From: Chrysomallon squamiferum
Taxonomy: Eukaryota; Animalia; Mollusca
Direction: 5' to 3'
Length of the DNA: 64,000 nucleotides
Assembly (NCBI GenBank): GCA_012295275.1
Contig: CM022671.1
Location: forward strand, 34,410,001-34,474,000
Shown here: one piece after another, positions 524 to 63,579 of the stretch
Layout: the number at the start of each line of letters is the position of its first letter
Position numbering within the stretch: the first letter of the stretch is position 1
The notes under the pieces: generated by a model
Databases searched by the model: none
What the model was told of the DNA's origin: nothing
The model's input: only the letters and a program-made list of their open reading frames with translations
Translations under genes and position numbers: made by a program

Positions 524-1397
524 GTTATTGCTTTCTTTTTATCTTATAATTCAGTAAGTTTTAATATAAACATTTGTAATAATCAGTCAAATGATTTTGA
601 ACATCATAAACAGAAAACAGGATTTTACATGCTCATTCCTATACACAGAAAACATAATTACGACATATAAAACACACGTTGAAGTTTACCATGTCATGTC
701 TGCTTTCATCTGAAATAATGCATAAGAAACTCAGCACGTAACAGTAATTAATTCTTTATCTTGACTGCACACACCCTGATCTTTCACTCACAAAACGGAG
801 CAGAGGTTTGATCGGGAAAAAATTCTTTACTGGAAAGAGTGGTTTCTTTGGACTTTTGAAATGACCTGCTTACAGAGAGGCTGTTGGGTATCGTGTTGCA
901 TGGTTGTCGAACGCGCTATCATTTAAAACAGGAGCTGGTGCACTTAGCCCGGGTTTAGATCTAATATTCAATTACGCTAATGGACAGCGAAGGTCCTCGG
1001 TGCGCGCCGAAAATGGAAGGAGTTTACGTGGGAATGTCAGCGAAGTGATGATGACGGCAAGCGCTCGTTCGCTGGCTAACTTCGTTAATGACGTTGAGAG
1101 AGAAGTTAATTGTCACAGCGGCCTGGTCTTGACAGAGCAGATTTAGTTATTACGTGCAAAACACGTGACGAGATCAAATGGGTTTAAACCGAAAGCTGGA
1201 ACAGTAAGGACTTGGTTAAAAAAGATTTTTTCATTTTTTTTTTTTTTTTTTTTTTTTTGGAATTGTATTCTTCGTACACAGTGTAAAATTTTCGTTAAAA
1301 GGAACAAAAAAATTATGATGATAGCATTTATTTCCCATCCGTCCTCCAAAATGTAAATTTATACTGAAATCAACAATGCTTACTACTGTTACTACAG

Positions 1398-11461: not shown

Positions 11462-47576
<36,115 letters not shown>

Positions 47577-57949: not shown

Positions 57950-58700
57950 TGCTGAATATAACAAATTTCTTTTACCAAGAGTTTCTTTCATAATACAATA
58001 TCTTTCGTATAAAAAAAATTACTGCCATAAAGACCTTCTTTCATAATACTATTTCTTTCAAATACAACAAATTTCTGTTATAAATATTTAGTTTTTTTAT
58101 ACAATTTCTATTTGAAAGAATTTCTTTGATAATACAATTCCTATTGTATACAATAAATTTCTATTATAAAGAGAGCTGGTTACATAACACAGGCTTTGTT
58201 TAAAAGAGTTTGTTTTATTGTATATAGAAAACTTTAACTAGAAGGACTTTTATTATTTTATATAAGAAACTTTTGTTATAAAGGTCTTGTTTCATAATGC
58301 CAATGTTATTGTATACAAGGAATTTGTATTATAAAGAAATTGTTTCATAATACAACTTTATTAAAAATGCCTTGTTTCATAATATCAGTGTTATTGTATA
58401 CCAGGAATTTCTATTATAAAGAACTTGTTTCATAATACAATTTTTATTAAAAATGTTATTTCACAATACCAATGTTATTGTATACAAGGAATTTCTGTTA
58501 TAAAGAACTCATTTCATAATACTTTTATTAAAAATGTCTTGTTTCATAGTACAAATGTTATTGTATACAAGGAATTTCTATTACAAAGAACTTGTTTCAT
58601 ACTACAATTTGTTTTGTACAAGTTTCTGTTACGAAGTGAATAAGTTTCATAATACAATTATTTTAAATGTATACAAGTTTCTGTTACAAAAAGTACTGAA
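57950..58700. repeat. Tandem array with an approximately 84-bp core unit (4 good copies) and degenerate flanks
   Basis: gttattgtatac at about 58305, 58390, 58474 and 58557; recurring tttcataataca and aatttct.ttataaaga. Confidence 0.8.
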
Positions 58701-59228
58701 TACAATAAAGATGAATAAAAAGAGTAATATACCTCTAATTTATTTTCATTTATTCTGTGCTTATTTAACTGTTTTCTAAGTGCTGAAATTTCTTCCAAAG
58801 TTCAGAGTATTCTCAAATCACTGAACAATGAGATCAAGACTCTTACTTTCTGTGAAATACTTTTACACATGCAAGTTTTCTGAATCTACAAAAAGCAAGT
58901 AACTTAACATTTCTTAATTACCAAGTTTCAAGGAACAGGAATGAAGGTAATAAATGTTTTTACTGGGGATTTTTTTTGGTGGTTTTTTTGAAGATTCAGA
59001 AAACAAAAAACTGCAAAACAATAAGGACAATATATGCAAGATAGTTACTTAAAAAGGTTACCAACACTGTATATTTTTTTTATTTTTTTTCTTTTTTAAA
59101 TTCTCTAAGAATAAATCTGATGACATCATATCACCACCCTTATTTCCAGAATGGTAAAAAAGTTGAAATATCGTAGGTTTATTTCTAAAATTATGCTGTC
59201 ATGAACAACACAGGGTGTGTGTGTGTGT

Positions 59229-59297
<69 letters not shown>

Positions 59298-59435
59298 CAT
59301 GTTATCCATGACCCAGTTCACTTGCAAGCTGCTAGAAAAAGTTGAGATATACTAATCTTATCCATTCCCATCTTATCCAAGTTAACATGAACCAAACGGG
59401 GAAGATGACTACTACATCGTTTCAACTGCACACTG

Positions 59436-59526
59436 CTAGGAGCAGCACTGGGGGCAGTAAAAGAACCCCTCCTTCCCCGCCTCTTCTATCCCTCTTGCAA
59501 ACAGCTCAACAAGCTGACAGTGCACT
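59436..59526 (-). CDS. CERK: Ceramide kinase terminal exon B, distal duplicate (RVHCQLVELFARGIEEAGKEGFFYCPQCCS*)
   Basis: ttatttcag acceptor in phase 2; second intact copy of the VHCQL.LFARG.EE motif; TAG stop. Confidence 0.88.
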
Positions 59527-59601
59527 CTGAAATAACCCAGAGATAGTTAGTGAAAACGTTTATAAAATAGTAAAATAATAATAAAAAATATGATAATAAA
59601 A

Positions 59602-59658
<57 letters not shown>

Positions 59659-61428
59659 ATAAAATAATAAAAATAAAAACAGTAATAAAATAAAATAAAT
59701 TAAATAAAAAAATAATAAAAAAATAAAAATAAAAGTAAAAATAAAAATAAAAATAAAATAATAATAAAAGTAAAATAAACTAAATTTAAGCAGTCTTTTA
59801 TCCCAACACCTGTGTTAATGAACAAATATAATTTTTAATAAAATGTGCTCACTGGAACATGTTAGTTAAATGAATGGAAGAAAACCTGAGAGAGAGAGAT
59901 GCTTTTAGTTAAAATCAAGTAGTTTAGTAAGTTAAACCTGAGTTAGTCAAACAATGGCTCTGAAACAAAGAGCTGCATTGTGTTAGTCATTTTAAATCAC
60001 AAAAAAACCCACAGAAAAGATATATACGTTAGTCGTTTGAAAAATAAAATAAAAATCAGTTATTCTGAATCAAAGATCCATTGATTAGATAATTAATTAG
60101 AGAAAACAAAGAGTCTATTTTGAGATAAAATAAATAAAACAGAAAATCAGTTATCAGTTTGTGCATCAAGTGAGATATATTTGTTATTGTTTTTGATTTT
60201 TGTGTTGTTGATTTGTTGATTAATTTCTGCACTTCATTTTTTTGGGGGAGAAGGGGAGGTGGGGGATGATATGTTAACTCTGTAACTTCATCAAACATCT
60301 GACATTCCACTCACAAGAAGTTATATTTCTAAACGACAAAAATGCTGGATTTTTTCATTTTCCTTTTTTTTTTAAATTTCCATTTTGACTGCTCATCAAT
60401 ATTTTGTCTGTTGATTTTTCTCCATTCTCATCTTTTCACATTTTTCCTTAGTTTAAAAATATAACAAAGATTATTAACATGTAGACACACACAAAAAAAA
60501 CAAACACAATTCTCTTCATCTTCAGTCTTTCTTCTTTCCAAGTGATATGTAGTTTTAAAAAATATTTACACAAATAAACCTTGTGAACACAGAAAATTTA
60601 CAATCTTCTTCTTCTTTTTCATTTTCCTCAGTGAAAGATATTAAAGAAAACTTCCCATTTGAAAACAAAACAAAATAAATAAAACTGATGACATCCACCA
60701 TAAGAAAAGATAACTCAGTGTAGAAACACAGGCAGTGAGAGTAAAAACACACAAAAAACACCACATCTTTCAATGTAAGTTAATGTATGTGTCATTGTGT
60801 GACATTACAAATGACTGTCAAATGACTACAAAAATAAAAAGATGTTTTTCAAATTCAATATTTTGAACAGCAGTCTTTTTATAATGTGATCCGATTTTAA
60901 CTTTTATAAAACATGGAGGTCCATGCATTTGTACTGAACAAACAGATCTTCAAATCTTCAGACCTGCTTTTCAGAAGTTGAGACAACTCTCACTCCAAAC
61001 AGAAAACTTCAAATCTGACTGCAAAATGAACACACAATAAATAAAACATGGCTTCCTTCAGATTGGCTTTTTTTTCTTCTCTCAAACTGAAAATTCATTT
61101 CTACTGAAAACTGTCTCTGAAACAAGTCTAATAAATAAATAAATATTAAATAAAACTTTGTTTCTTGATGTGGGAATTTTGTTTTTTTCCTTTCCCTAAA
61201 TCACAAAGATCCATTTTTATTTATTTATACATTTATTTATTTATTTATTTATTATATATATATATTTATTTATTTATTTATATATATATTTTTTTTTTGG
61301 CTATTGTTTTGTTCCTAAATCACAAAGATCCATTTTCATCATTATTATTATTTTTTTTTTTTTTATTTTTTTCTGAATGACAAACAAACACCCAAGTCTA
61401 TCACAGGAGGCTAGTTTTGTTGTAAAAA

Positions 61429-61507
61429 CTAAAAACACTGAGCTTCTGCAAATTTTCCTTCTTCTTCCACTCCACGTGCAAACAGTTGAATGAGCTGACA
61501 GTGAACT
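61429..61507 (-). CDS. CERK: Ceramide kinase terminal exon A, proximal (RVHCQLIQLFARGVEEEGKFAEAQCF*)
   Basis: ctatttcag acceptor in phase 2; matches CERK RVHCQLVRLFARGIEE; TAG stop. Confidence 0.9.
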
Positions 61508-61682
61508 CTGAAATAGTGTAACAAGTTTGTCTAGCAGATAGTTTACACACTTGCATTACGAGCAATTATACACAGTGTAAGTTTTCTGACTAGGTGCAAA
61601 GTGAGATGTATCATAATTGTGACTTAGTGTTGTTATAGGGATAAGATTTTACTGATTGAGTAGCAGTGTTTGTCTGTCTGTC

Positions 61683-63403: not shown

Positions 63404-63579
63404 CTGACGTGTAAATTTGGGAATTCGACAATTTCTCCGTCACAGTTCCACACGCTGTGTTGTGCGCGCAGAGGAATTCTGTGCATTGCGTTTTCATCCA
63501 GATCTCCATAATCTGAATGAGTTGGTGGTTCAAACTTGAACTCCTTCACTCGGTATGTTTGTATAAAGTCAAAATTGAA
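63404..63579 (-). CDS. CERK: Ceramide kinase, penultimate coding exon (FNFDFIQTYRVKEFKF...SVWNCDGEIVEFPNLHV); upstream exons lie beyond the window
   Basis: Acceptor ctgttccag, donor AG|GTTAGT, phase 0-2; matches the CERK motifs FDFTFVEVYRVKKFQF and SSWNCDGEV. Confidence 0.9.

What the first reader, a model, noticed from the sequence alone, without database searches (positions are those of the whole stretch)
59436..61507. Ceramide kinase has a tandemly duplicated last exon giving two alternative Cys-tailed C-termini
Seen: two intact phase-2 terminal exons follow the WNCDGE exon, each with a tatttcag acceptor and a TAG. A is RVHCQLIQLFARGVEEEGK-FAEAQCF* and B is RVHCQLVELFARGIEEAGK-EGFFYCPQCCS*. 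They share 15 of 19 core residues, and 7 of the shared codons differ synonymously. That pattern argues for an old duplication with both copies under selection, not an assembly duplicate. Known: human CERK ends VHCQLVRLFARGIEE plus a short Cys-free tail. Inference: alternative last-exon choice switches the enzyme between a one-Cys tail and an aromatic three-Cys tail (possible S-palmitoylation or CCX-type lipid anchor) and also swaps 3' UTRs. This could route ceramide-1-phosphate synthesis to different membranes. I do not recall this being described.
Basis: partly seen in the sequence, partly recalled or inferred. Interest (0 to 1): 0.85.

Follow-up and report, generated by a model that had tools for sequence, protein, structure and literature searches.

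The report
Snail ceramide kinase swaps cysteine tails
A snail's ceramide kinase gene carries two old copies of its last exon, and RNA shows both are spliced in: one keeps the cysteine-cluster tail found in most mollusc and insect versions of the enzyme, the other has a one-cysteine tail, so the choice likely changes how firmly a fatty-acid anchor holds the enzyme on membranes.

Summary
Confirmed. On the minus strand, the CERK exon 63579-63404 (U) is followed by two intact phase-2 terminal exons, A (61507-61429) and B (59526-59436). Their cores differ mostly at silent sites (pS 0.78, pN 0.13). RNA contigs from one study show U→A in 3 of 3 RNA runs laid and U→B in 1 of 3; the B junction has only 27 letters on the U side, as expected at an assembly fork.

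(1) B is the ancestral tail: CxxCC occurs in 17 of 18 gastropod CERKs; A is the derived one-Cys form, and Gigantopelta's model has an A-like tail. (2) Prenylation is unlikely (no CaaX; orthologues have 4-18 residues after CC); S-palmitoylation is the better inference but is untested. (3) A is not always terminal: one run splices A's 3' UTR (59853) into B, 1,576 nt past A's stop, a possible decay substrate.

This is a new member of a known kind (KRAS4A/4B, CDC42). The side finding, a Cys-rich tail common in invertebrate CERKs and absent from 17 vertebrate ones, appeared in none of the literature listings I saw.

The parts
63404..63579 (-). Penultimate CERK exon U (FNFDFIQ...WNCDGE...LHV), 176 nt, phase-2 donor shared by both terminal exons
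   Evidence: Pfam CERK_C E 4e-5, below the curated cut-off as a lone exon; 62% identity to Gigantopelta aegis ceramide kinase-like by BLASTP
61429..61507 (-). Exon A coding part (derived copy): kinase-completing core plus one-Cys tail KFAEAQCF*
   Evidence: U→A junction in X1, X2, X3 (X2 and X3 run on 255 or more letters upstream)
59853..61428 (-). 3' UTR of exon A (1,576 nt to the downstream donor); AATAAA cluster starting at 61367-61225
   Evidence: RNA contigs cover 61047-59853 (X3) and most of 60883-59809 (X2); 61380-61048 is uncovered and holds repeats; hexamer scan
59527..59852 (-). 326-nt GT-AG intron from a weak donor in A's UTR (CCA|GTGAGC) to exon B's acceptor; ATTAAA at 59839, 14 nt after the donor
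   Evidence: X3 record 7 loose end = first 30 letters of exon B; donor matches consensus at 5 of 9; X1 and X2 contigs run on unspliced to 59802 and 59809
59436..59526 (-). Exon B coding part (ancestral type): core plus KEGFFYCPQCCS* with the CxxCC cluster
   Evidence: U→B junction in X1; synonymous variant at 59511 in all three RNA runs; CxxCC in 17 of 18 gastropods
59084..59435 (-). 3' UTR of exon B, candidate AATAAA at 59183 and 59084
   Evidence: RNA contigs of X1-X3 cover 59296-59435; hexamer scan; the end is not determined

Best explanation
The gene has two functional copies of its last coding exon, both spliced to the same upstream exon, giving a kinase that ends either in the ancestral three-cysteine tail (B) or in a derived one-cysteine tail (A); the tails are likely S-palmitoylation sites, so the choice would set how stably the enzyme sits on membranes. 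Shown: two intact copies, purifying selection, both junctions in RNA, and a third splice from A's 3' UTR into B. Inferred: the duplication happened in a gastropod lineage that includes Gigantopelta; the shared core is the last beta-strand of the kinase fold, so both products would be complete enzymes; B would be multiply acylated and A singly or not at all. A behaves as a composite exon. It would end at its own poly(A) signal, read through into B, or splice 1,576 nt after its stop into B, a form that would be a candidate for nonsense-mediated decay.
For: Sequence and selection. Junctions: U→A in 3 of 3 RNA runs, U→B in 1 of 3, UTR→B in 1 of 3. In X1 the A and B contigs begin with the same 30 letters (27 of U plus AGT), the signature of a fork in a 31-letter assembly graph. 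The intron 61512-61660 has no depth in the three RNA runs while X5 covers it unspliced, so the RNA cover is not simply DNA. Ancestry: CxxCC in 17 of 18 gastropods, CC in 11 of 11 bivalves, two or more tail Cys in 16 of 16 insects and 5 of 7 cnidarians, 0 of 17 vertebrates; B aligns without a gap to Lottia GKEEVFQCPPCCS. Cys number and spacing vary (2-8 in insects), with hydrophobic or basic neighbours, which fits acylation better than a fixed metal site. AlphaFold model of Lottia CERK: core is strand 522-534 (pLDDT 96-98), tail 541-559 has pLDDT 45-53. Precedents: KRAS, CDC42, calcineurin CNAβ1, the CCPCC motif of PI4KIIα (listing).
Against: No lipidation, localisation or protein evidence. Both junctions into B have 27 and 30 letters on the short side, under the tool's 31-letter bar for a bridge, and each was seen in one run. 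All RNA runs belong to one study, and only contigs were available. U→B was not seen in X2 or X3. The UTR donor is weak (5 of 9; at least 11 other GT sites of 91 score as well) and may be cryptic. Chiton, the four mite and millipede proteins, Hydra, Hydractinia and Styela lack a Cys-rich tail, so it is dispensable in some lineages. Whether Gigantopelta has both exons is unknown, and A's core is as close to Lottia (15 of 18) as to B (14 of 18), so shared core residues do not date the duplication.
Confidence: 0.55

Rival explanations
1. The exon choice is mainly about the mRNA: the two forms differ in 3' UTR, stability and decay, and the protein tails behave alike (both acylated or both not).
For: A has a 1.6-kb UTR with several poly(A) hexamers, a donor-ATTAAA pair 14 nt apart and a junction far downstream of the stop. 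A keeps one Cys at -2 in both this genome and Gigantopelta, and the end QCF* resembles planthopper CSCF*. Junctions 50 nt or more after a stop can elicit decay (PMC6173133).
Against: B keeps CxxCC at the same spacing as in limpets, and A lost it in a duplicated coding exon; a pure UTR switch would not need a second coding copy. Junction-dependent decay in molluscs was not addressed in the listing.
Confidence: 0.2
2. The Cys cluster binds zinc or acts as a redox or partner-binding motif rather than a lipid anchor; A removes that control.
For: CxxC spacing is kept in cnidarians, a hemichordate, termite-like loci and molluscs. CERK has an internal CxxxCxxC motif needed for activity, for which metal binding was raised (PMC3069040); it is present in Lottia at 362.
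Against: Insect tails have runs of 2-8 Cys without fixed spacing. The tail has low confidence in the model and no folded domain, although a monomer model without metal cannot exclude a site.
Confidence: 0.12
3. One copy is on its way out: A has become the main form and B, or the UTR→B splice, is leaky splicing with no present function.
For: U→B seen in 1 of 3 RNA runs against 3 of 3 for U→A. The single Gigantopelta model has only the A-like tail.
Against: B is intact with pN far below pS, keeps CxxCC, and its only variant in the RNA runs is synonymous. In X1 the B path survived assembly beside A. Contigs drop rare variants, so absence in X2 and X3 proves little.
Confidence: 0.1
4. Tail B is prenylated through a CCX-type motif.
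For: B ends ...CCS* in this genome.
Against: No Cys at -4 in A or B. In 17 gastropods and 11 bivalves 4-18 residues follow the CC. From established knowledge (not from a call), CC/CCX prenylation needs Rab geranylgeranyl transferase with REP, which recognises the Rab fold.
Confidence: 0.03

Closest known systems
KRAS exons 4A/4B and CDC42 alternative 3' exons
   Same: Homologous alternative last coding exons swap the C-terminal membrane-targeting tail without disturbing the folded domain (PMC9882654, passages). The newer copy lies upstream of the ancestral one, as 4A lies before 4B.
   Different: Those are GTPases with prenylated CaaX ends; neither CERK tail has CaaX. The paper derives 4A from NRAS exon 4, whereas A and B share even their acceptor and look like a local duplication. 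Lipidation is proven there and inferred here.
Tandem exon duplication-derived C-terminal substitutions (77 of 236 human events; PMC8373072, passages)
   Same: Duplicated 3' coding exons chosen by alternative poly(A) use, giving homologous C-termini.
   Different: CERK and 'ceramide' do not occur in that paper's main text (supplement not searched). This case seems lineage-restricted and adds a UTR splice from the first copy into the second.
Calcineurin CNAβ1 (PMC8523714, abstract and passages)
   Same: Alternative 3' end processing gives an enzyme a palmitoylated tail that moves it to membranes.
   Different: Its tail comes from intronic sequence, not a duplicated exon, and the acylated form is the variant; here the Cys cluster is the ancestral form.
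PI4KIIα CCPCC motif (PMC3974213, start of abstract in listing)
   Same: A lipid kinase that depends on a palmitoylated Cys cluster similar in make-up to CPxCC.
   Different: Different fold; no exon switch. That its motif lies inside the protein rather than at the end is recalled.
Ceramide kinase (CERK, Pfam CERK_C PF19280)
   Same: Exon U and both terminal cores belong to the CERK C-terminal domain.
   Different: The 17 vertebrate proteins examined have 0-1 tail Cys; none of 65 related loci shows two terminal exons.

Membership tests
Ceramide kinase | CERK_C domain sequence (WNCDGE, VHCQL..LFARG) | tested here: met
   every named hit with an informative name is ceramide kinase(-like) or DAGKc-domain
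Ceramide kinase | PH domain, DAGK catalytic domain and CxxxCxxC motif in the same gene | not testable with these tools
   Upstream exons lie beyond 64000 and no genome is held; an X2 contig extends 1,548 letters upstream of exon A but its sequence is not given
Tandem-duplicated alternative 3' exons | Two homologous exons in tandem, same phase, each with a stop | tested here: met
Tandem-duplicated alternative 3' exons | Both spliced to the same upstream exon | tested here: met
   U→A 3 of 3 RNA runs, U→B 1 of 3 with 27 letters on the short side
Tandem-duplicated alternative 3' exons | Each copy has its own poly(A) site | tested here: inconclusive
   Hexamers present; X1 and X2 contigs stop at 59802 and 59809, 25-32 nt after ATTAAA, but contigs cannot show RNA ends
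Tandem-duplicated alternative 3' exons | Both copies conserved in a second species | tested here: inconclusive
   Gigantopelta model has an A-like tail, other gastropods B-like; no relative's genomic locus with both was available
CaaX or CC/CCX prenylated proteins | Cys at -4, or terminal CC/CCX kept at the end in orthologues | tested here: not met
S-palmitoylated Cys-cluster tails | Cys cluster with hydrophobic or basic neighbours in a flexible tail | tested here: met
S-palmitoylated Cys-cluster tails | Demonstrated thioester-linked fatty acid | not testable with these tools
   No Cerk row was found in the supplements of two Drosophila palmitoylome papers, so no indirect test was possible
Junction-dependent NMD substrate | Exon junction 50 nt or more after the stop | tested here: met
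   1,576 nt, one run, 30 letters on the short side
Junction-dependent NMD substrate | Transcript rises when decay is blocked | not testable with these tools
   Needs an experiment

The most novel reading that the evidence does not exclude
Invertebrate ceramide kinases carry an unrecognised, ancient palmitoylation anchor at the C-terminus that vertebrates lost, and this snail lineage built a regulated switch on it: a duplicated last exon toggles between a triple- and a single-cysteine anchor by tissue or condition, with a donor-versus-poly(A) contest in exon A's UTR that sends surplus A message to decay.
Probability: 0.25. Interest if true: 0.72.

Novelty: new member of a known kind. Interest (0 to 1): 0.5.

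Why it matters
CERK localisation is usually credited to the N-terminal PH domain (passage in PMC3650063), with C-terminal regions also named in a cited title. The survey here points to a second, C-terminal anchor candidate in most molluscs, insects and many cnidarians sampled. The snail provides a natural matched pair of tails on one enzyme, and a fly or Aplysia CERK allows the same test in a tractable animal. If true it extends the KRAS/CDC42 tail-switch design from GTPases to a sphingolipid kinase. As a splicing arrangement alone it is a clean but ordinary case.

Tried and rejected
Assembly duplicate or haplotig: rejected; silent sites are near saturation and similarity ends outside acceptor plus core. 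Separate decayed paralogue for B: rejected; the X1 junction uses 23 letters that occur once in the window, at the end of U. A third copy at the acceptor-like site near 59960: rejected (116 and 368 of 1000 shuffles score as well; no profile hit). A 33-nt in-frame micro-exon at 59885-59853: not observed; X3's contig runs through its acceptor unspliced. Second species with both exons: 65 metagenome loci scanned, none with two copies; 23 have an intron-separated terminal exon and only 8 of these have 2.1 kb or more downstream; none was recognisable as a gastropod by its tail, so this is weak. Palmitoylome look-ups: no Cerk row in 6 supplement files of PMC9374236 or in 4 very short files of PMC6368284; uninformative, and the fly gene labels used were recalled. 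X5 gave no contig on exon B, which the tool says can be a filter effect. Contig depths were not used to rank isoforms. No solved CERK structure among 6 hits. No earlier scan findings. No genome held.

Full report
Observation. On the minus strand, exon U (63579-63404) ends at a phase-2 donor and reads in frame into two downstream exons with identical TATTTCAG|AGT acceptors: A at 61507, ending KFAEAQCF*, and B at 59526, ending KEGFFYCPQCCS*. The cores are 40 of 55 nt identical; pS is 0.78 and pN 0.13 over 18 codons (Fisher p 5e-5), and 0 of 1000 shuffles reach the alignment score. Similarity is confined to acceptor plus core, so this is an old exon duplication and not an assembly copy. A profile scan of the whole window finds only these two copies. 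The closest named protein is Gigantopelta aegis ceramide kinase-like, so the window is probably from a related gastropod; the species was not determined and no genome is held.

RNA. Five runs were listed, four RNA runs of one study and one of unknown kind from a second. All are assembled contigs. U→A appears in 3 of 3 RNA runs as a loose end matching the end of U; in X2 and X3 it continues 255 or more letters. U→B appears in 1 of 3 (X1), as 23 loose letters that occur once in the window, at 63408-63430. With the four shared letters this is 27 on the U side, under the tool's 31-letter bar for a bridge. However, X1's A and B contigs start with the same 30 letters (27 of U plus AGT), which is what a fork in a 31-letter graph gives (my inference). 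The intron upstream of A has no depth in the RNA runs, while X5 crosses A's acceptor unspliced like DNA. The only variant in B, at 59511, is synonymous. X1 having both paths and X2 and X3 only A hints at sample-dependent choice, but contigs drop rare forms.

In X3 a contig runs from A's UTR to 59853 and then into the first 30 letters of exon B, removing a 326-nt GT-AG intron 1,576 nt after A's stop. X3's main B contig starts exactly at 59526, and an unspliced contig also enters it. In X1 and X2 contigs pass the donor unspliced and stop at 59802 and 59809, shortly after an ATTAAA at 59839; this is only a weak hint of a poly(A) site. X2 also crosses B's acceptor unspliced. So A acts as a composite exon that can be terminal, read through, or internal with B as UTR. 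Junctions 50 nt or more after a stop can elicit decay (PMC6173133, passages). The donor is weak (5 of 9) and was seen once, so it may be cryptic.

Which tail is old. I took one protein per named species. Of 19 gastropod proteins one partial was dropped; 17 of the remaining 18 have CxxCC, and the exception is Gigantopelta (KVLVTQLCA*). All 11 bivalves have CC, 8 of them CxxCC. In hand-picked named hits, two or more tail Cys occur in 16 of 16 insects, 5 of 7 cnidarians, 3 of 4 other lophotrochozoans and 4 of 5 invertebrate deuterostomes, against 0 of 4 mites and millipede and 0 of 17 vertebrates. B matches Lottia GKEEVFQCPPCCS without a gap. B is therefore ancestral and A derived. Gigantopelta's core matches A at 16 of 18 and B at 13 of 18, and it shares the short tail with Cys at -2. 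This suggests the duplication predates their split, but core identity may be ancestral and I could not see that locus. None of 65 metagenome loci has two copies; most are short.

Mechanism. In an AlphaFold model of Lottia CERK (75-row alignment) the shared core is the last strand (522-534, pLDDT 96-98) and the tail is low-confidence (45-53). Both exons would thus complete the fold and differ in a flexible appendage. Prenylation fails its test: no Cys at -4, and 4-18 residues follow the CC in orthologues. Variable Cys runs next to hydrophobic or basic residues fit S-palmitoylation, as for CNAβ1 (PMC8523714, abstract and passages) and PI4KIIα (PMC3974213, listing only). This step is inferred. 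Searches of supplements of two fly palmitoylome papers found no Cerk row and do not test it. I put 0.55 on an acylation-strength switch, 0.20 on a mainly mRNA-level switch, 0.12 on metal or redox use, 0.10 on one copy decaying and 0.03 on prenylation.

Known and new. Duplicated 3' exons are a catalogued class (77 human C-terminal cases; PMC8373072, passages), and KRAS and CDC42 use them to swap membrane-targeting tails (PMC9882654, passages). I saw no paper on a duplicated CERK last exon or on a palmitoylated CERK tail in the listings (17 of 17 shown; 20 of 28; 6 of 6; 14 of 14; 20 of 5,560; 15 of 105). The library lacks most subscription journals, and the key CERK localisation paper was seen only as a title in a reference list. 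PMC3069040 and PMC3650063 were read as passages. bioRxiv supplements were closed, and the supplement of PMC8373072 was not searched.

Verdict. A real and transcribed feature; a new member of a known kind. It stays above ordinary because RNA supports both forms, a third splice adds a possible control, and the comparison exposes a testable, widespread invertebrate CERK tail. Interest 0.5.

Noticed in passing
CERK proteins: A Cys-rich C-terminal tail is common across invertebrate CERKs (CxxCC in molluscs, CxxC plus basic residues in cnidarians, Cys runs up to eight in flies) and absent from the vertebrates sampled; many teleosts keep a single Cys near the end.
   Followed up: partly
window 59885-59853 (-): A 33-nt segment between a (CT)nCAG acceptor-like site and the UTR donor would form an in-frame micro-exon between U and B, inserting 11 residues into the last strand; no junction into it was seen.
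   Followed up: partly
window about 37800-47576 (+): Exons of a multi-PDZ gene that looks like GRIP (name recalled from the sequence, not searched), converging on CERK; its last exon seen ends ...SVKTV*, a PDZ-ligand-like end.
   Followed up: no
window 865-1143 (+): Open frame of 49% GC (…GAGALSPGLDLIFNYANGQ…) that looks like a coding exon of an unidentified gene.
   Followed up: no
window 57950-58690: Degenerate minisatellite of about 85 nt (4 or more copies) downstream of exon B's UTR.
   Followed up: no
P0002 and P0251: Gigantopelta aegis CERK appears to be annotated as two separate models (364 and 189 residues) on a contig of the same length, probably a split gene.
   Followed up: no
L001-L065: The phase-2 intron before VHCQL is present in 23 loci and absent in others (some of which may be transcripts), so the position is old but may have been lost in some lineages.
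   Followed up: partly
P0039: A Magallana gigas model fuses CERK to a neighbouring C-type lectin, probably an annotation read-through.
   Followed up: no
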